Positions 554-6,361 of a stretch of 63,087 nucleotides of DNA are shown here, in pieces (within the stretch, counting starts at the first letter, position 1; each line of letters starts with the position of its first letter). Position numbers and translations under genes: made by a program. The notes beneath the pieces were generated by a model, which saw nothing but the letters and a program-made list of their open reading frames with translations, had not been told where the DNA came from and did no database searches. Source of the stretch: Alphaproteobacteria bacterium MarineAlpha3_Bin6 (GTDB taxonomy: Bacteria > Pseudomonadota > Alphaproteobacteria > Rhodospirillales > UBA2165); contig PTLH01000001.1 of the NCBI GenBank assembly GCA_002938035.1, forward strand, positions 1 through 63,087, in the 5' to 3' direction.

Positions 554-615
554 TAAAAATATCCTTAAACGATTAGAGGGACCATATCAGACATCGGGCT
601 CTTTGGCCCGAGTTC

Positions 616-1041
616 CTAACCTACAAGCGAGGGCGTTAAAGCGGTTACATCAATCTCAACCATCGCCCCTTCTGTGAGGAGGGCTTGTACACCGATACAA
701 GTACTCGTCGCCGAGCCAGCTTCGCCATAAAACTCGTTCATTGCATTTTGAATTATAGGCCGCTGAGCAAGCTGCAAATCAACAACGAATATTCTCTGGC
801 GAACAACATCTGCGGGTGTCGCCCCGGCAATTGCTAATGTCTCCCGAATATTATCAAAAATGTATTTCATTTGAACAGCCAGATCTCCCTCGCCAACAAG
901 CACCCCTTCTGCAGTTGAAGCAAGCAGACCAGAGAGATGAACCTGCTTGCCCGCTTCGCTGATAATGAGGTTGGTGAAATGCGGCTTGTTGTGAAGAAAT
1001 TCAGGTCGGTGGCGTTGGATTATAGGGCTATTATCAGTCAT
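616..1041 (-). CDS. RidA/YjgF (Rid) family reactive-intermediate deaminase-like protein
   Basis: 141 aa. The length and the segments VHLSGLLA...GDLAVQMKYIFDNIRETLAIAGATPADVV...RIFV and a C-terminal VEIDV are typical of the YjgF/RidA fold family. Confidence 0.8.
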   Translation of the reverse strand: MTDNSPIIQRHRPEFLHNKPHFTNLIISEAGKQVHLSGLLASTAEGVLVGEGDLAVQMKYIFDNIRETLAIAGATPADVVRQRIFVVDLQLAQRPIIQNAMNEFYGEAGSATSTCIGVQALLTEGAMVEIDVTALTPSLVG

Positions 1042-1055
1042 TTTTGGATTGGCAG

Positions 1056-1095
1056 CATTGGTTTTTCACAAGACCCATGAGAAGGGGTAGTACAG
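1056..1095. repeat. left arm of a perfect 40-bp inverted repeat, abutting the integrase stop codon
   Basis: cattggtttttcacaagacccatgagaaggggtagtacag is the exact reverse complement of 2254-2293. Identity stops at 1055/2294. Confidence 0.95.
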
Positions 1096-2253
1096 TTACT
1101 TCTCAACAGCTTTCTCCATCCAGTTATACAGCACATCAACTGGATATCCTGAGCCGTAATGTTCACTCATGCCAGCCAATGACCAACCACCTAACCTGTC
1201 AGCAATATCTGGTGGACATTGAACTGCTCTAAGGCGATCCCTAATGCTGTGTCTGAAAGAATGAATGACACATCCTGAAGGGACCTTGGGTCTAAGCCAT
1301 TTATTCAAAACTGCACTCGCTGAATTGGACTTACATTCAGTCTCGTTACAATATCTGGGAAACAGAAAATTGGTTTGAGTGGAATTGAACGCTTTTTGAG
1401 CAGCCCAAAAGGCAGCTCCAACCAATGGAACTATTCTCTCACTGCCCTTTGTCTTTAACCTACGCGAAGAGTGTGCCTTCAGTAGGATATGAGGATATTC
1501 CCCCTCTAAGGATAGGTCATCTTTAAGAAGACCTATGACCTCGCTTAAACGCATCCCCGTATCACTGATCAGTGCTACTAGCCATCTAACTTCATCATTC
1601 ATAACGCGACAATCAACTTGTACTGAACGGATTGTCTCTAGCGGAATGGGATTTCTCTTCGTTTCAGAACCTTCTCTGTCATCACCCAGATAAACTCCGG
1701 AGAAAGAGTTAATTTCAGAAAGGCCTACTTCGCGAGTGGTGAAGTTGATTATGGCTCTAATGGTGCTGAACATACGACTGACGCTTCCTCGACTAAGACC
1801 ACGTTCAAAGAATGAGTCTCTTAAAAGGTTTGCGTCATGACGAGTGTAGGTGTCGATCGGTTTATCACCGACGAGTTCAGTTAGATTTTTAATTGCTCTT
1901 TCTACGGCAGCGCTAAAAGTAATAGGCCTACTAGCCCCCTTTACTCTTAAGTATATTGTGCCAGCTTCTGTCATCAGTGGAGCTGACGAGGATATTCTAG
2001 CTTCTGCAGCTTGACCTTTGAGGAACCTAAGTAGAGGAGTGTCCTTACTTCGCCATCTAAGCGTTAGCCAATCTTCTTCTAACTGGGACGCAAGTGATGC
2101 AGCTTTAATCTTTGCAGCCCTGCAAGATTTGGTACGAAGCGAAAAGACGATTTTAGACCGTTCGTAGTGATCCAATAGATCTTTTGGAACTCTTCTGCTG
2201 AAATAGTAAATGCCACGCTTTCGGAACAAATAAGGTGATAAATGATCTACCAT
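1096..2253 (-). CDS. tyrosine-type site-specific recombinase / phage-type integrase
   Basis: 385 aa. N-terminal RKRGIYYFSRRVPKDL motif is typical of alphaproteobacterial island integrases. Catalytic signature: GMRLSE (Arg), HSFRHSIRDR (His-x-x-Arg), GGW...HYGSGY (Tyr). Lies directly 3' of tRNA-Leu. Confidence 0.9.
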   Translation of the reverse strand: MVDHLSPYLFRKRGIYYFSRRVPKDLLDHYERSKIVFSLRTKSCRAAKIKAASLASQLEEDWLTLRWRSKDTPLLRFLKGQAAEARISSSAPLMTEAGTIYLRVKGASRPITFSAAVERAIKNLTELVGDKPIDTYTRHDANLLRDSFFERGLSRGSVSRMFSTIRAIINFTTREVGLSEINSFSGVYLGDDREGSETKRNPIPLETIRSVQVDCRVMNDEVRWLVALISDTGMRLSEVIGLLKDDLSLEGEYPHILLKAHSSRRLKTKGSERIVPLVGAAFWAAQKAFNSTQTNFLFPRYCNETECKSNSASAVLNKWLRPKVPSGCVIHSFRHSIRDRLRAVQCPPDIADRLGGWSLAGMSEHYGSGYPVDVLYNWMEKAVEK

Positions 2254-2293
2254 CTGTACTACCCCTTCTCATGGGTCTTGTGAAAAACCAATG
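2254..2293. repeat. right arm of the perfect 40-bp inverted repeat, abutting the integrase start codon and containing its SD-like GAAGGGG
   Basis: ctgtactaccccttctcatgggtcttgtgaaaaaccaatg is the exact reverse complement of 1056-1095. Confidence 0.95.
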
Positions 2294-2329
2294 AACACCA
2301 AAGGGTTAGCTGATGTTTACCTTGAGAAA

Positions 2330-2416
2330 TGGTGCCTCGGGAGAGACTCGAACTCTCACTTCCGTGAAGAAACCGGATTTTGAATCCGGCGCGTCTACCA
2401 GTTCCGCCACCGAGGC
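2330..2416 (-). tRNA. tRNA-Leu (anticodon CAA), class II with long variable arm, CCA encoded
   Basis: Reverse complement reads GCCTCGG-TG-GCGGAACTGGTAGACGC-GCCGGATTCAAAATCCGG-TTTCTTCACGGAAGTGAGA-GTTCGAGTCTCTC-CCGAGGC-A-CCA. 7-bp acceptor stem, anticodon loop TTCAAAA, T loop GTTCGAGTC. Confidence 0.93.
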
Positions 2417-2503
2417 ATTTTATTTTAAACGATTAATCAGGGTCTTAATTTTTCTAATATTTTACCCTTTAATAAACAGTTTTCAGTTTGAAAATAACGC
2501 CAA

Positions 2504-2713
2504 TTAAATATCTATTATTTTCTCATATACTACTTTACTGTGCAGACGAGACAATCCTTTTGCTGAGCGGATAATGCTTTTTGCAAATGAGAAAAGTGCT
2601 CTATTATATCCGTCGCTCAGCTCCTTAGGTTCCTCTATCATGACATTTTCAAGCCAATAGGGATGACAAAGTTCGTGAAGGAATTCCCAATGCTCGACAT
2701 GCCCAACAAGCAA
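2504..2713 (-). pseudogene. short HExxH-containing ORF, probably a remnant of a zinc metallopeptidase-like gene
   Basis: 69 aa from a TTG start, with motif FLHELCHPYW. The frame stays open upstream to about 2824 without an ATG. Far too short for a complete peptidase. Confidence 0.3.
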
Positions 2714-2946
2714 ATTTCGATTGAGGGTAAAGTTGTTAATTGAGCAACTTCTGACATGGTTATAACAACCTCTAAGCGCATGGTTCCATTGGTTTTGGTC
2801 TGTTATGGCGCATAACCATCTTGCTCACTGTTGACATTCTGGCTTACCCTAACCAAAGCCTTTGTACAGAAAATTAACTTAACCATTGCAAACTCATGAT
2901 CTAACAAATGGACCACATTGAAGGGTAAGCCAACAAAGAGGGGACC

Positions 2947-4206
2947 ATGAAAAAAGTATTAATATTAATATTTGCATCAAGTAATTTGCTGAGCCCCGTA
3001 GAGGCCAAGGACCTAATTCTTGAGGTGACCAAGAAGGATTGCCGTCGGGCTGTCCGGCACATGCCTTCAGCAGACGTGGCCTACAAACCGGGCCTTGATG
3101 CCCGCGGACGTTGGGTGGGAGCCGCGGATGTCGGCGGTGGCTCCCGGATAAAGCTTCCGGATGTATTCGAGTTCAATGTCAACGTTGACATCCGGAGGTA
3201 TTTAGGAGGGCCCGAGGCTGATGCGGCTGCGGCCAGTACTGCAGCAATTGCAGCTGACCAGGCGAAGTCGGCAGTAACCGCTGCTTCAACAGCAGTTGCC
3301 GCCGTTGAAGCAGCAGCTTCAGAGGCACAGGTCATCGCGGATGCAGCCAATATAGATTCAACGAGCACAACTGCTAATGCCGCTAATGCACTTGCTGAGC
3401 ATGAGGCGGACCCTTTGAACCAGGAGAAGAAGGATGCCGCCATAACAACCGCTGCGGCAGCCGCTTCCGCTTCTGCTCTTGCCGCCTCAACAGGCGCTGA
3501 TGCTGCAGTCCTTCAAAGACTATCAAAGGCTGGTAGAGTTGCTGTAGACGCTGCGGATAAGGCATCCAATGCTGTGGACAAGGCCGCTAACGCAACAGCC
3601 GCTAGCGAACTGGCAGCTGAGGCCATATCGGCGGCAGCTGTTATTACCGCCACCGCAGCAGCGGATGCTGCTGCTACAGCAGCTTCAGAGGCAGAGGCCA
3701 CGGCCGCTACGGCACTGGCCGCTCACAAGGCAGATCCATCTAATGAAGTGAAGGAGGGTGTTTTTACGGCAGCAACAGCTGCCGCCACGATTGCTGCGTC
3801 TGCGTCTGCCGCGTCTTCTGCCAGTGCCGCTGCTGTTGTTAGTTCCGCCACCATAGTAAAGTCCACATCTGGGGCAACTCGCGCAACTGCTGCAAAGACT
3901 GCCACAACAGCGGCGGCCGAGGCAGTCGCTGCCTCAGGGGGGACGGCGGTCATATCCAATCTTTCTGATGGTGCCGCCGACACGGTATCAGCGGCGGGCG
4001 CCGCAATAGTTTCATCTGACGCCAATACGGCGCTGGTTAAGGCTTTCAGGGACGCGCAGAAATATGGAGGTCTGAACATGGCAGTGGGCAAGGTGCGTTT
4101 TGACATTCTGAAAGGTACTTTAACATTTAATGGACAGCCTTTTTCCGTTTCGGATCAGGCTATGCTGGCAAGGGTATGTCAGGAAAGACTGAATAAGCGA
4201 CGTTAA
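2947..4206 (+). CDS. secreted protein with a long Ala/Thr/Ser-rich low-complexity core
   Basis: 419 aa. N-terminal signal peptide (MKKVLILIFASSNLLSPVEA/KD), an ordinary-composition N-domain (about 70 aa) and C-domain (about 60 aa, VGKVRFDILKGTLTFNGQPFS), and a core of about 300 aa dominated by GCN codons. AAGAGGGG SD-like element upstream. Confidence 0.75.
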   Translation: MKKVLILIFASSNLLSPVEAKDLILEVTKKDCRRAVRHMPSADVAYKPGLDARGRWVGAADVGGGSRIKLPDVFEFNVNVDIRRYLGGPEADAAAASTAAIAADQAKSAVTAASTAVAAVEAAASEAQVIADAANIDSTSTTANAANALAEHEADPLNQEKKDAAITTAAAAASASALAASTGADAAVLQRLSKAGRVAVDAADKASNAVDKAANATAASELAAEAISAAAVITATAAADAAATAASEAEATAATALAAHKADPSNEVKEGVFTAATAAATIAASASAASSASAAAVVSSATIVKSTSGATRATAAKTATTAAAEAVAASGGTAVISNLSDGAADTVSAAGAAIVSSDANTALVKAFRDAQKYGGLNMAVGKVRFDILKGTLTFNGQPFSVSDQAMLARVCQERLNKRR

Positions 4207-4530
4207 ATGTAGCGTAATAACCTGCAACATATTTTGGTAATTAACCCAAGTTAAAACAATCTTTGCAAACTGATATCTGATTTAAACTTACTGAGACCAA
4301 CTGAATTGTCTAACGTCAGAAGTGAATAAAATCCTAAGCGTCGTTGATTGTATCTTTGGCGTGCATCCACAGATTTTGATTTTCTACTTAAATCTTAAGA
4401 CCATTGGTCAAAGCCGAACGAAAATTTCGCAAGTGCTCAAGTAATTATTCATAATGAGGGTGTCTAAAACTTATTTCCTTCTTTATTTTTAAATAAAACG
4501 TAGGTTGGAAGCCTATTTATATGAAATGAA

Positions 4531-4575
4531 GGCGATTTTGAATTCGGCGCGTCTGACGACACCGCAACCGAGGCA
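4531..4575 (-). pseudogene. degenerate copy of the 5' half of tRNA-Leu(CAA)
   Basis: ggcgattttgaattcggcgcgtctgacgacaccgcaaccgaggca aligns without gaps to 2372-2416 at about 33/45 positions, in the same orientation. No matching 3' half. Confidence 0.55.
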
Positions 4576-4705
4576 ACAAATTTTGGACCATGATCATATT
4601 TGTGCTGAAAAATCGGTCAACCACCTATGGTAACGACATAACCGTGTTTGCCAAAGCCTACCCAAGTAGATAGTTAGTTCCTATATAGAACTCCCCTTAA
4701 TTGAG

Positions 4706-5293
4706 TTGGCGATGCTACGGCGCATTTACGGATGGACTTTTGAACTTGCTGCTCACAAGCATGCATTGTTGGCTCTTGCGTTCGTATCGTTTCTGGAAAG
4801 CTCAATATTTCCAATTCCACCCGATATCATGTTAATCCCCATGGTTTTGGCAACCCGAGATCGAGCTTGGGTAATCGCAAGTGTGTGCACGGCGTCGTCG
4901 GTTTTAGGCGGCATGGCCGGTTATGTAATTGGTGCGTTCCTTTTTGATCAGATAGGAGAGCCCATTTTAAATTTCTACCATTATAATTTGAAATTCCAGG
5001 AGTTCCAGAAGGTCTACACTAATTGGGGTGCTTGGGCCGTGTTCATTGCCGGTGTAACGCCATTTCCGTATAAAGTTATTACAATTCTAAGCGGGGCTAC
5101 ACACCTCGATTTCGGTATTTTTTCATTTTCTTCTTTAATTGCCAGGGGGCTTAGGTTTTTCGTTGTAACGGCTCTTCTTTGGTACTTAGGTGAATCAATA
5201 CGGGAATTTATCGAGCGCCGTTTGGGGGTTTTATTTTTATTTTTTGTTGTTTTATTATTATGTGGATATTTGTTTGTAAAATTTTTGCTTTGA
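4706..5293 (+). CDS. YqaA/DedA-family (SNARE-associated domain) membrane protein
   Basis: 195 aa. The motif FLESSIFPIPPDIMLIPM is characteristic of YqaA-like DedA proteins. Multiple TM segments. Start could be ATG 4712. Confidence 0.8.
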   Translation: MAMLRRIYGWTFELAAHKHALLALAFVSFLESSIFPIPPDIMLIPMVLATRDRAWVIASVCTASSVLGGMAGYVIGAFLFDQIGEPILNFYHYNLKFQEFQKVYTNWGAWAVFIAGVTPFPYKVITILSGATHLDFGIFSFSSLIARGLRFFVVTALLWYLGESIREFIERRLGVLFLFFVVLLLCGYLFVKFLL

Positions 5294-5312
5294 CGACCGT
5301 GGGCTAACTCTT

Positions 5313-5792
5313 ATGAGCTATTTGCTTCGATTTCATCTCTTGACCTCGGTTATGTTGGCGAGTGCAGGCGCTCTAGGGGTCGCGTTGATTGCTCAATACG
5401 GCTATCAATTGAACCCGTGTGAACTTTGTAGCTATCAGCGCATCCCATATGGGAGTATCATCCTATTTGGTGGGCTCGCCCTGGCGTTTGGAGGATGGAA
5501 TAGAGCCGCTGTCGGCTATCTGTTTGGTGTAATATTTTTCGTTGGCGCCGCACTGGCATTCTATCATACGGGTGTGGAACAGCATTGGTGGCAGTCCGCC
5601 ACCTCCTGTGGTGGACATCAACCAATGCCAAGAAGCCTCGCTGAATTAAAGGTTGGACTAACTCAATCCATGTCGAAACAATGCGACGATATAGACTGGA
5701 CCTTGTTTGGTTTCTCTATGTCTGTTTACAATATCGTTGCCTCTTTAGTGTTATCAACAGCCTGTATTTTTAGTGCCCGATTAAAAGGTTAA
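5313..5792 (+). CDS. disulfide bond formation protein B (DsbB family)
   Basis: 159 aa with 4 TM segments. PCELCSYQRIPY (CxxC plus QR) and a second Cys pair in the second periplasmic loop (SCGG...QCDD). Confidence 0.75.
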   Translation: MSYLLRFHLLTSVMLASAGALGVALIAQYGYQLNPCELCSYQRIPYGSIILFGGLALAFGGWNRAAVGYLFGVIFFVGAALAFYHTGVEQHWWQSATSCGGHQPMPRSLAELKVGLTQSMSKQCDDIDWTLFGFSMSVYNIVASLVLSTACIFSARLKG

Positions 5793-5800
5793 GGTGTTAA

Positions 5801-6361
5801 ATGAACCAGAAAGAAAAAATCTTAGGGCGGCTCCCCGGAGACCTTTCAAAAGAAGAGTTGATAGCGCGCATTATACGGGTGGATCAAGCCGGTGAATACG
5901 GCGCTAAACGTATCTACGAGGGGCAGTTGTCAGTTTTGAGTGGTACCAAGGATGAACCCGTGCTCAGAGAGATGGCGGATACGGAAGTAGTTCACTTGGA
6001 TACCTTCAATAAAATCATGGTGGAGAGGAGGGTGCGTCCCACTCTACTCGCGCCCTTATGGCATGTTGCAGGTTTCGCATTAGGTGCTGGTACTGCATTG
6101 ATGGGCCGGGAAGCGGCTATGGCCTGCACAGTTGCTGTGGAAGAAGTAATCGAAGAACATTATAGTCACCAGGCTGCCCAACTCGCTTCCGAAGAAGAGC
6201 CCGAAATTCTGGAAATCATCGAGAGGTTTCGAAAAGACGAAGCAGAACACAAAGAAACGGCTTTGCTTGAAGGGGCGGAGAACGCACCCGGCTACCCCTT
6301 TTTAGCTTCGGCAGTGAAATCCTGCTCACGTGTTGCCATTTGGTTATCAGAGCGCATTTAA
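5801..6361 (+). CDS. coq7: demethoxyubiquinone hydroxylase (Coq7 family di-iron carboxylate protein)
   Basis: 186 aa. RVDQAGEYGAKRIYEGQ and repeated E...ExxH motifs (EVVH, EEVIEEH, DEAEH). Confidence 0.85.
   Translation: MNQKEKILGRLPGDLSKEELIARIIRVDQAGEYGAKRIYEGQLSVLSGTKDEPVLREMADTEVVHLDTFNKIMVERRVRPTLLAPLWHVAGFALGAGTALMGREAAMACTVAVEEVIEEHYSHQAAQLASEEEPEILEIIERFRKDEAEHKETALLEGAENAPGYPFLASAVKSCSRVAIWLSERI

What the first reader, a model, noticed from the sequence alone, without database searches (positions are those of the whole stretch)
1056..2293. Tyrosine recombinase gene enclosed exactly by a perfect 40-bp inverted repeat
Read directly from the sequence, 1056-1095 (cattggtttttcacaagacccatgagaaggggtagtacag) is the exact reverse complement of 2254-2293. 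The match is 40/40 and ends abruptly on both outer sides.

The arms touch the integrase ORF with zero spacer. The stop codon (1096-1098) abuts the left arm and the start codon (2251-2253) abuts the right arm. The whole 1158-nt gene is therefore the loop of a 40-bp perfect palindrome.

The start-proximal arm carries the only SD-like element (GAAGGGG, 8 nt before the ATG). Flipping the segment would regenerate an identical leader while reversing the gene relative to tRNA-Leu (upstream) and the RidA-like gene (downstream, 14 nt beyond the left arm).

Three non-exclusive readings:
(a) A self-contained invertible cassette whose recombinase sits inside its own switch.
(b) An RNA-level clamp, in which the 5' UTR and 3' UTR of the int mRNA form a 40-bp duplex that hides the SD and makes an RNase III-type substrate. 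This is similar in logic to lambda int/sib retroregulation but closes the whole mRNA.
(c) A minimal TIR-bounded mobile unit encoding only a tyrosine recombinase.

I do not know of a described integrase with this exact architecture. Perfect identity over 40 non-coding bp suggests recent origin or continuous homogenisation.
Basis: partly seen in the sequence, partly recalled or inferred. Interest (0 to 1): 0.85.

Follow-up and report, generated by a model that had tools for sequence, protein, structure and literature searches.

The report
Integrase gene between inverted attachment sites
The perfect 40-bp inverted repeat around this integrase gene is real, and it is the cut-down remnant of a widespread design I found no description of, in which a tRNA-island integrase sits between two inverted copies of its own attachment site and is found flipped in sister genomes.

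Summary
In detail: arms 1056-1095 and 2254-2293 are 40/40 complementary and abut the stop and start codons of a 385-aa tyrosine integrase, 36 nt downstream of tRNA-Leu(CAA).

It is not a one-off. In 71 of 80 informative loci of this integrase family (DUF6538 + Phage_integrase, mostly marine Alphaproteobacteria), the stretch from the last ~14-17 nt of a tRNA gene to the int start codon is repeated in inverted orientation after int. The inverted copy lies right after the stop codon or after one cargo gene.

Beyond the distal arm lie ~100 nt with a promoter-like element and two tandem 8-nt sites. These sites co-vary with a site beside the int ATG. Together this looks like a complete inverted attP of a lambda-type integrase.

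At this same tRNA-Leu locus, two independent metagenome contigs carry int in the window's orientation and two carry it flipped.

The window's distal arm keeps only the inner 40 nt. It has no core and no promoter module, so this copy is probably a locked or decaying derivative.

The invertible-cassette reading is supported in principle. The TIR-transposon reading is not supported. The RNA-clamp reading is untested. No description of this architecture turned up in the literature searches.

The parts
2330..2416 (-). tRNA-Leu(CAA) gene. Its last ~15 nt (2330-2344) are the presumed recombination core (attB/attL core).
   Evidence: ARAGORN and Rfam. In relatives the inverted repeat starts 14-17 nt inside the tRNA 3' end. 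L099 has a 16-nt identity block between attL and attR.
2294..2329 (-). Outer part of the element-side att arm ('spacer'). It carries a block similar to the IHF consensus (TAACCCTTTGGTG). It is not repeated on the ridA side in the window.
   Evidence: Alignment A2 shows a conserved TAACCCATTGAT block. It is repeated in inverted form in L119 and L092 but not in the window.
2254..2293 (-). tRNA-proximal arm of the 40-bp inverted repeat. It is the int leader, with SD-like GAAGGGG and arm-type site 1 (GGTAGTAC, 2256-2263).
   Evidence: The motif co-varies with the tandem sites of the T module in relatives.
2244..2251 (-). Arm-type site 2 (GGTAGATC), overlapping codons 1-3 of int, 12 nt after site 1.
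   Evidence: One search finds a tandem pair only at 2244-2263. The same arrangement occurs in L012 and L093 (GGTAGTACTGATGGTAGTA).
1096..2253 (-). Tyrosine integrase gene, 385 aa. It has an N-terminal DUF6538 domain (beta-beta-beta-helix, like an arm-binding domain), a core-binding domain and a catalytic domain. The ORF is intact.
   Evidence: Pfam. R235, K267, H331, R334, W357 and Y366 are invariant in 30 homologues. AF2 model plus Foldseek hits to Tn1549 Int and full-length lambda Int.
1056..1095 (-). Distal arm: the inverted copy of the leader, with one arm-type site (GTACTACC, 1086-1093). It is the truncated remnant of an inverted attP. Core and promoter/tandem-site module are missing.
   Evidence: Compare full-length copies in L119 (>=78 nt), L092 (91 nt) and L012 (127 nt).
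1042..1055 (.). 14-nt junction between the truncated arm and the ridA start. Homology to other ridA contexts begins at 1044.
   Evidence: blastn of L001-L007 against the window.
2459..2486 (-). The only sigma70-like promoter match upstream of tRNA-Leu/int on the minus strand. It is the likely source of read-through transcription into int.
   Evidence: No promoter-like match lies between the tRNA and int or in the arms.

Best explanation
The 40-bp repeat is the surviving inner part of a longer inverted repeat that characterises this family of lambda-type (heterobivalent) tyrosine integrases. These integrases integrate at the 3' end of tRNA genes.

In the complete design, the tRNA-proximal arm is the element half of attL. 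It runs from the last ~14-17 nt of the tRNA (the core), through an IHF-like site and a small hairpin, to the SD and an arm-type Int-binding site next to the ATG.

The distal arm is the same sequence inverted. Going outward it is followed by ~100 nt that carry a promoter-like element and two tandem arm-type sites. Together these make a complete attP in inverted orientation.

The integrase gene, alone or with one convergent cargo gene that uses the mirrored leader, therefore lies between two of its own recombination sites in inverted orientation. Int-catalysed recombination between them flips the gene.

Flipping changes what lies upstream of int: the tRNA gene in one state, the attP promoter module in the other. 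In the window the distal site has been cut down to 40 bp and joined to a ridA region. This copy has an intact int ORF but has probably lost the ability to be flipped site-specifically.

Shown: the repeat, the family-wide anatomy, the co-varying sites and both orientations in nature. Inferred: that Int catalyses the flip, where the crossover occurs, and the regulatory consequence.
For: (1) 71 of 80 informative family loci have the inverted copy: 46 adjacent to the stop codon (median 84.5 nt) and 25 at 0.27-2.7 kb beyond it. Several lie in contigs that continue about 3 kb on both sides, and some in complete chromosomes (L036, L027, L050).

(2) The outer repeat boundary lies 14-17 nt inside the tRNA 3' end for Phe, Leu, Thr, Arg and Gly tRNAs.

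(3) A T module lies 86-107 nt beyond the distal arm: a tandem 8-9-mer with period 12. Its reverse complement sits beside the int ATG in 24 of 38 loci with enough flank, and it changes locus by locus (GTACTAC, GGTCTAC, GTTCTAC, TGTACATCA).

(4) A promoter-like TTTACA-N17-TATGTT sits in the T module and reads inward. It is the only such match in L092 2100-3858.

(5) Both orientations occur at this very locus. The window and L119 read tRNA->int. L008 (SPAdes, ERZ838136) and L126 (MEGAHIT k127, SRR1217452) have the int stop codon next to the tRNA-proximal arm.

(6) In L067 the tRNA is on the 3' side of int and only a 20-nt inverted core repeat is present. In L085 the distal arm is fused to a second, convergent tRNA gene.

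(7) L049 shows the whole element as attL - int - inverted attP - 1.7 kb - attR. L099 shows the classical direct attL/attR form.

(8) The protein is a three-domain lambda-Int-like integrase with all catalytic residues.

(9) L119 (99% identical) has at least 78 nt of repeat where the window has 40.
Against: No read-level or experimental evidence of inversion exists. Both flipped contigs start inside int, so their distal junctions are unseen.

Orientation is strongly biased. In 67 loci the tRNA is upstream on the same strand, against 3 with it on the 3' side. Flipping is therefore rare, transient or selected against.

The opposite orientations could also come from independent integrations through either of two inverted attP sites, or from RecA-dependent recombination between the arms.

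The window's distal arm lacks the presumed core. The copies at this locus show decay: a nonsense codon in L119 and int deleted after nt 13 in L127.

How the inverted duplicate arises, and why its inner end lies so near the ORF ends, is unexplained. The promoter call rests on consensus matching only.
Confidence: 0.6

Rival explanations
1. The repeat is a passive by-product, an inverted duplication of the attP-int 5' region that has no function of its own. The two orientations arise from RecA-dependent homologous recombination between the arms, or from independent integration events in either orientation.
For: Some loci keep a short int N-terminal fragment on the distal side (L027, L038), as expected from an inverted duplication followed by deletion. 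Orientation is strongly biased toward tRNA->int. Some copies have diverged arms: 88-95% in L095, L092, L085, L087 and L050. Perfect identity within loci is what gene conversion between inverted repeats gives.
Against: The architecture recurs in 71 of 80 loci across many tRNAs and orders, with a precise outer boundary at the tRNA core. The distal copy always comes with the full set of co-varying protein-binding sites and the promoter module. L067 has only 20 nt of inverted identity, which is short for RecA. In L085 the distal arm is joined to another tRNA exactly at the core.
Confidence: 0.22
2. RNA-level clamp. The 5' and 3' UTRs of the int mRNA pair into a long duplex. This hides the SD and creates an RNase III substrate, keeping the integrase silent.
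For: The 40-bp terminal stem closes both the MFE and the centroid structure of the 1238-nt transcript. The arm holds the SD-like GAAGGGG. No terminator-like site lies between int and the distal arm.
Against: It does not explain why the repeat reaches into the tRNA 3' end. It does not explain why tandem arm-type sites and a promoter flank the distal copy, or why in 25 loci a whole cargo gene lies between int and the distal arm. Transcript ends are unknown. It can only be a side effect added to the DNA-level design.
Confidence: 0.1
3. The arms are terminal inverted repeats of a minimal transposon-like unit that encodes only a tyrosine recombinase.
For: Many homologues sit on contigs of only 1.2-1.9 kb. 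int-only mini-elements do exist (L099). Units are also found away from intact tRNA genes (L092, L037, L013, L014).
Against: There is no target-site duplication beside the arms. The arm occurs only twice in the window. The L099 mini-element is bounded by direct att repeats at a tRNA. The units away from intact tRNAs still carry tRNA 3'-end cores and lie next to att-like ends of neighbouring elements, that is, in tandem arrays.
Confidence: 0.04
4. Assembly artefact: a fold-back or chimeric join at a short repeat.
For: The window's own junction between the truncated arm and ridA (1042-1055) was not found in any other contig.
Against: The arms and int are reproduced in at least six independent assemblies made with different assemblers. 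The L010 contig stops exactly at the 40-nt boundary, consistent with a branch point there in a second sample. The family-wide repeat also occurs in complete chromosomes.
Confidence: 0.03

Closest known systems
Lambda-type heterobivalent integrases with arm-type and core sites at tRNA genes. This includes the KplE1 IntS class, in which attL overlaps the int regulatory region (PMC2951348).
   Same: A three-domain integrase. The core lies in the tRNA 3' end. Repeated arm-type sites occur on both sides of the core, together with a block similar to the IHF consensus. Arm-type sites overlap the int leader and start codon, which suggests autoregulation.
   Different: A second, complete attP copy in inverted orientation lies directly after int, so that int is bracketed by inverted sites. 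My literature searches found no description of this for lambda, P4-like or KplE1-type modules.
Salmonella Hin/hix H-segment and related invertible segments (own knowledge).
   Same: The recombinase gene lies inside the segment that it inverts, which is bounded by inverted recombination sites.
   Different: Hin is a serine invertase with 26-bp hix sites and an enhancer, and its segment carries an outward promoter. Here the enzyme is a tyrosine integrase with complex att sites. No promoter was detected inside the segment, and the promoter-like element lies outside it in the T module.
Yeast 2-micron plasmid FLP/FRT (own knowledge; PMC3737535 for Flp).
   Same: A tyrosine recombinase gene lies in a unique segment between two inverted repeats that contain its target sites. 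The predicted circular form of the element (attP and inverted attP) would be split into two flippable halves, as L049 suggests.
   Different: FLP/FRT is eukaryotic and sits on a plasmid. It has 599-bp repeats, simple FRT sites and a role in copy-number amplification. None of this was tested here.
pTN3-type integrase-driven inversions between tRNA att sites in Thermococcales (PMC5495485).
   Same: An integrase recombines inverted att sequences derived from tRNA genes and produces inversions. L085, where int lies between convergent tRNA-Thr and tRNA-Phe genes, looks like such a product.
   Different: The pTN3 integrase is an archaeal SSV-type enzyme and the inversions are chromosome-scale. In that system the recombinase gene is not a small dedicated module bracketed by its own sites.
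Tycheposons and other tRNA-linked additive genomic islands of marine bacteria (10.1101/2020.12.28.424599; PMC10872708).
   Same: Tyrosine recombinases sit next to tRNA genes in marine bacteria, with partial tRNA repeats and tandem accretion of elements. The window's tRNA-Leu locus behaves this way.
   Different: That preprint describes direct partial-tRNA repeats flanking the elements. A text search for 'inverted', 'inversion' and 'palindrom' found no mention of inverted att copies around the integrase. Whether DUF6538 integrases belong to the tycheposon recombinase clade was not tested.

Membership tests
Tyrosine recombinase / phage integrase superfamily | Catalytic R-K-H-R-(H/W)-Y set and catalytic-domain fold | tested here: met
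   Pfam PF00589, E 3.3e-11. R235, K267, H331, R334, W357 and Y366 are invariant in 30 homologues. Foldseek hits to Tn1549 Int (E 1e-10) and lambda Int (E about 1e-7).
Heterobivalent (lambda-type) integrase with complex att sites | N-terminal arm-binding domain | tested here: inconclusive
   The AF2 model has beta-beta-beta-helix at residues 9-70, and full-length lambda Int aligns over 374-401 columns. The topology matches arm-binding domains as I know them. DNA binding was not tested.
Heterobivalent (lambda-type) integrase with complex att sites | Repeated arm-type sites distant from the core on both arms, specific to each integrase | tested here: met
   A tandem pair sits at the int start, a tandem pair sits 86-107 nt beyond the distal core, and a single site sits next to the stop codon. 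The motif co-varies between loci in 24 of 38. In the window only the int-start pair and the two arm copies remain.
tRNA-integrating genomic island or integrative element | Direct repeat of the tRNA 3' end (attL/attR) bounding the element | tested here: inconclusive
   Seen in relatives L099 (16-nt block) and L049. Not found in the window, but the island side of the window is only 1055 nt long.
Site-specific invertible DNA segment (phase-variation type) | Inverted recombination sites bounding the segment | tested here: met
Site-specific invertible DNA segment (phase-variation type) | Both orientations present among otherwise near-identical genomes | tested here: met
   The window and L119 versus L008 and L126, with 97-99.7% identical flanks. 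Within-sample heterogeneity was not tested.
Site-specific invertible DNA segment (phase-variation type) | Inversion catalysed by a dedicated recombinase at defined crossover sites | not testable with these tools
   Only inference is available: the outer repeat boundary at the tRNA core, the 20-nt core-only repeat in L067, and the fusion to a second tRNA in L085.
Site-specific invertible DNA segment (phase-variation type) | Orientation-dependent expression of a gene | not testable with these tools
   Promoter-like matches lie only upstream of the tRNA (window) and in the T module (L092). There are no expression data.
Insertion sequence or transposon with terminal inverted repeats | Target-site duplication and multiple copies at unrelated sites | tested here: not met
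   The flanks of the arms (..TTGGCAG | arm ... arm | AACACCA..) share no direct repeat. The arm occurs only twice in the window. Units elsewhere keep tRNA cores.
Integron | IntI-type integrase with attI, attC cassettes and Pc | tested here: not met
   The Pfam architecture is DUF6538 + PF00589. No attC-like array was seen. The sites are tRNA-derived att sites.

The most novel reading that the evidence does not exclude
A large family of tRNA-island integrases in marine Alphaproteobacteria (DUF6538 type) is built as a self-flipping module. The integrase, with or without one convergent cargo gene that shares its leader, lies between attL and a complete inverted attP whose Int-bound promoter points inward. 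Int-catalysed inversion then acts as a heritable two-state switch. It decides whether int or the cargo gene (or antisense int) is driven by the att-embedded promoter or by the tRNA gene, and so sets island mobility or cargo expression in a subpopulation. The excised circle would be a bacterial counterpart of the 2-micron FLP plasmid, with two flippable halves.
Probability: 0.35. Interest if true: 0.8.

Novelty: new variant of a known kind. Interest (0 to 1): 0.7.

Why it matters
Integrases next to tRNA genes are usually read as simple markers of island ends. Here the integrase is bracketed by inverted copies of its own attachment site in most members of a family with thousands of homologues in ocean metagenomes. 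Both orientations are seen in nature at one locus.

If the flip is catalysed by the integrase and changes expression, it would be a new way of regulating island mobility and cargo genes. It would be a DNA-inversion switch built from att sites.

It would also explain why these loci fragment short-read assemblies. It gives DUF6538 a likely role as an arm-binding domain.

The idea can be tested directly in cultured Roseobacter-group strains that carry the full module.

Tried and rejected
- Exact-sequence look-ups of the int protein and of the DedA-like neighbour found nothing.
- A PDB sequence search with the int protein gave no hit at E <= 0.01. Only the fold search was informative.
- Rfam found nothing but the two tRNAs.
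- Eight literature searches found no description of the architecture (DUF6538; invertible + integrase + tRNA; tycheposon; attP + inverted orientation + arm-type; Roseobacter islands; recombinase within the invertible segment; inverted copies of the attachment site). One candidate paper (PMC7701988) only mentions repeats near an integrase in general terms.
- The viral-contig scan gave only 3 relatives, so this is not a phage-typical integrase.
- The plus-strand ORFs at the starts of L122 and L123 first looked like more flipped copies. They are a spurious ORF over the tRNA gene, and homology to the window ends at 2309.
- The 'cargo' that replaces int in L127 is only a 51-codon ORF, so it counts as an int deletion and not as cassette exchange.
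- An integron-like reading of the ridA cassette was considered. It was dropped because there are no attC-like sites and the breakpoints lie at ATG-3 and at the stop codon.
- A palindromic crossover region as the cause of antiparallel synapsis was considered. It holds for tRNA-Phe (CCCGGG) but not for tRNA-Leu or tRNA-Thr cores.
- An ssDNA hairpin-integration model, like CTX phage or integron attC, was considered as the origin of the repeat. It cannot be tested here.
Full report
**1. The observation**

The window has a perfect 40-nt inverted repeat, with arms at 1056-1095 and 2254-2293 and 1158 nt between them. With up to three mismatches the 40-mer occurs nowhere else in the 63 kb, and none is expected in shuffles. 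The sequence between the arms is exactly one ORF, 1096..2253 on the minus strand, 385 aa.

The ORF carries Pfam DUF6538 (E 1.5e-19) and Phage_integrase (E 3.3e-11). tRNA-Leu(CAA) lies at 2330-2416 on the same strand, 36 nt upstream of the proximal arm. A RidA-family gene (616..1041, minus strand) starts 14 nt beyond the distal arm.

**2. The protein**

An alignment of 30 homologues (51-87% identity) keeps R235, K267, H331, R334, W357 and Y366 invariant. An AlphaFold2 model (mean pLDDT 80.8) shows an N-terminal three-stranded sheet plus long helix (residues 9-70), followed by helical and catalytic domains.

Foldseek places it with Tn1549 Int (E 1e-10) and full-length lambda Int (E about 1e-7, aligned over 374-401 columns). 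It is therefore a three-domain, lambda-type integrase. DUF6538 is most likely its arm-binding domain; that is inferred from topology and not tested.

**3. The repeat is a family property and is normally longer**

The protein has more than 4000 detectable homologues. Many of the best hits sit on contigs of only 1.2-1.9 kb. I fetched 80 loci from species-representative genomes, 27 from metagenomes, and a few by exact-protein look-up.

In 95 loci with a usable int match, the 160 nt upstream of int has an inverted copy downstream in 71. In 46 it begins next to the stop codon (length 43-151 nt, median 84.5). In 25 it lies 0.27-2.7 kb further on. Nine loci with at least 1 kb of downstream sequence have none, and 15 are uninformative.

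Identity between the arms is mostly 97-100%, although the arms differ greatly between loci. The repeat is present in contigs that continue about 3 kb on both sides and in complete chromosomes (L036 Yoonia, L027, L050), so it is not a contig-end artefact.

A tRNA gene (Leu, Phe, Arg, Thr, Gly, SeC) lies 80-100 nt upstream on the same strand in 67 loci. The upstream arm typically begins 14-17 nt inside the tRNA 3' end, sometimes 21-56 nt inside.

**4. Anatomy of the arms and of what lies beyond**

An alignment of 40 upstream arms shows these blocks, in order:
- the tRNA 3' end (GGGCACCA);
- a conserved TAACCCATTGAT block that fits the IHF consensus as I know it;
- a lineage-specific hairpin;
- an SD;
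- a GTAG(T/A)(A/C)C motif just before the ATG;
- a second copy of that motif 12 nt later, over the first codons.

Beyond the distal arm most loci carry a conserved module that I call T. At 86-107 nt from the arm there is a tandem pair of an 8-9-mer with a 12-nt period, for example GTACTACCGTTTGTACTACC or GGTCTACGGTTTGGTCTACGG. It is the reverse complement of the motif beside the int ATG, and it changes with it from locus to locus. This holds in 24 of 38 loci with at least 150 nt of flank.

Between the tandem sites and the arm lies a promoter-like element: TTTACA-N17-TATGTT in the window's clade, and TTGAC(C/G)-N16-GATACC in Rhodobacterales (my reading by eye). It points toward the arm. In L092 it is the only sigma70-like match in 1.76 kb.

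Read together, the distal arm plus T has the layout of a complete attP: arm sites, core, arm sites, lying inverted relative to the tRNA. Three sets of loci support this reading:
- L099 shows the classical integrated form of an int-only mini-element. It reads tRNA-core-leader-int(truncated)-rc(T)-core-flank, with a 16-nt direct identity block. This identifies rc(T)-core-leader as attP.
- L113, L041, L092 and L095 have this full attP upstream of int.
- L049 shows a whole small element: core-leader-int-cargo-inverted(leader-core)-T-1.7 kb-rc(T)-core-flank. That is attL, an inverted internal attP, and attR.

**5. Cargo**

In the 25 loci where the distal arm is separated from int, the gap usually holds a single gene of variable function. 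In about 17 of the 21 loci inspected it lies on the opposite strand, with its start at or near the inner end of the distal arm. It would therefore use the mirrored leader and be transcribed from the T-module promoter. In L027 and L038 that position holds a short N-terminal int fragment. This hints that the repeat began as an inverted duplication of attP plus the int 5' end.

**6. Both orientations exist at this very locus**

An exact-protein look-up of the neighbouring COQ7 gene gave ten contigs of the same population (hydrothermal-vent and marine metagenomes), 96-99.7% identical to window 2300-6000. They fall into these states:
- L119 has int in the window's orientation and at least 78 nt of repeat (arm plus spacer). 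Its int carries a nonsense codon at position 6.
- L008/L121 (SPAdes) and L126 (MEGAHIT k127, a different sample) have the int stop codon abutting the tRNA-proximal arm, so the segment is flipped. The arm is shorter than the final k-mers of both assemblers, so the junctions should be supported by reads.
- L127 has int deleted after its first 13 nt.
- L120 and L122-124 carry a different island from 21 nt past the tRNA.

Elsewhere, L067 has the tRNA on the 3' side of int with only a 20-nt inverted core repeat. In L085 the distal arm is fused to a second, convergent tRNA gene. Both look like products of site-specific exchange at the core.

**7. What the window has**

The proximal side is complete: tRNA core, spacer with the IHF-like block, leader, and both arm-type sites at 2244-2263. 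The distal side keeps only the inner 40 nt, with one arm-type site. There is no inverted spacer, no core and no T module.

Instead, after 14 nt comes a ridA gene. Its DNA is 98.5-99.5% identical to seven other metagenome contigs, and the homology starts 3 nt before its ATG. None of those contigs carries the arm or int. Close relatives keep the long form: at least 78 nt in L119, 91 nt in L092, and 127 nt in L012 at the same type of tRNA.

The abrupt outer end of the 40-mer is therefore a truncation breakpoint. The L010 contig (k127) ends exactly at that point, which fits a branch there in another sample. No promoter-like match lies between the tRNA and int, so int here probably depends on read-through from the tRNA promoter (2486->2459).

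**8. Mechanism proposed**

Int binds the arm-type sites through its N-terminal domain and the core in the tRNA 3' end. It then recombines attL with the inverted internal attP, which flips int (and cargo).

What changes is the upstream context. In one state int lies behind the tRNA gene, and the T promoter fires into the cargo gene or antisense into int. In the other state int lies behind rc(T)-core-leader, the native attP-int arrangement of the free element.

This could be a stochastic switch for integrase supply or cargo expression. The arm sites next to the -35 element and over the start codon suggest autoregulation, as shown for KplE1 IntS (PMC2951348).

The steps shown are the anatomy, the co-variation of the sites and the orientation polymorphism. 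The steps inferred are catalysis by Int, crossover at the core, promoter activity and any phenotype.

For the window's truncated copy I expect no site-specific flipping. At most there would be rare homologous recombination across 40 bp.

**9. Rivals**

- A passive inverted duplication flipped by RecA, or independent integrations through either of two inverted attP sites, cannot be excluded. The strong orientation bias (67 against 3) and the decay at this locus fit it.
- The RNA clamp is physically trivial, since the 40-bp stem closes the fold. It does not explain the DNA-level anatomy.
- A TIR transposon is not supported: there is no target duplication and the mini-element has direct att repeats.
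- An assembly artefact is excluded for the repeat itself. Only the window's own arm-ridA junction lacks independent confirmation.

**10. Novelty**

The components are known kinds: a lambda-type integrase, tRNA att sites, and invertible segments with the recombinase inside (Hin, FLP). Searches of the held literature found no description of an integrase bracketed by attL and an inverted attP, nor any paper mentioning DUF6538. I rate it a new variant of a known kind.

The window's copy is a degenerate example of the design, but it led to the family-wide design.

Noticed in passing
window 2376-4575: A 2.16-kb insertion carrying an alanine-rich secreted-looking protein (2947..4206, 419 aa, no Pfam hit). 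It is flanked by an imperfect 42-nt direct repeat of the 5' half of tRNA-Leu (2376-2417 / 4534-4575, 74% over 58 nt). Contigs L126 and L127 lack it, with the tRNA joined directly to 4534 onward, so it is a second island of a different type at the same tRNA. It has no integrase.
   Followed up: partly
window 610-1044; L001-L007: The ridA gene is 98.5-99.5% identical at DNA level in seven metagenome contigs with at least three different neighbourhoods. Homology to the window breaks 3 nt before the ATG, and in several contigs at the stop codon. The gene behaves like a mobile cassette. The mechanism is unknown.
   Followed up: partly
L114 2910-4637 (contig Ga0209402_10002719): The same leader and arm plus the first 98 codons of int (99% identical) are fused to the reverse complement of window 2966-4287, the Ala-rich gene region (94% identical). 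This is a rearranged, truncated int copy in another genomic arrangement.
   Followed up: partly
L085 2736-4174: int lies between two convergent complete tRNA genes, tRNA-Thr(CGT) and tRNA-Phe(GAA). The arms reach 31 nt into both tRNAs and differ only in the acceptor-stem part. This is the expected product of recombination of the distal attP with a second tRNA gene, which implies a chromosomal inversion.
   Followed up: no
L024, L029, L036, L048, L056, L060, L064, L075, L081, L088, L097 and others (between int stop and distal arm): Single cargo genes of unrelated function lie convergent with int. Going by their N-terminal sequences they may include a cupin-like, a DUF1330-like, a SET-like and a nucleotidyltransferase-like protein, an MCP and membrane proteins. 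They start at the inner end of the distal arm and so share int's leader. No Pfam search was run on them.
   Followed up: partly
upstream arms of relatives, e.g. L012 2950-2975, L011, L113, L030, L057: A small hairpin lies between the IHF-like block and the SD. It keeps its position but changes sequence with compensatory pairs (CTTGTG/CACAAG, CTTGAGT/ACTCAAG, TCAGCT/AGCTGA). In the window lineage its 5' half is disrupted (CATTGG..CACAAG).
   Followed up: no
L120 1100-1290; L122-L124 starts: In other strains the same tRNA-Leu(CAA) is followed, from 21 nt past its 3' end, by a different island with a DUF7424 gene and its own repeated motif (GACTCTGTG / CACAGAGTC). This marks competing occupants of one integration hotspot.
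   Followed up: no
contig ends of L013, L019, L021, L047, L090 and others: Many contigs, including some from isolate genomes, end just after the tandem arm-type sites of the T module. This suggests T is repeated elsewhere in those genomes, as expected if rc(T)-core forms the distal attR. It would also explain why these loci fragment short-read assemblies.
   Followed up: partly
L119 1219-1221 (codon 6 of int): In a 99%-identical strain that keeps the long repeat, int carries a nonsense codon at position 6. Together with the int deletion in L127 and the truncated distal arm in the window, this shows the element decaying in several ways at one locus.
   Followed up: yes
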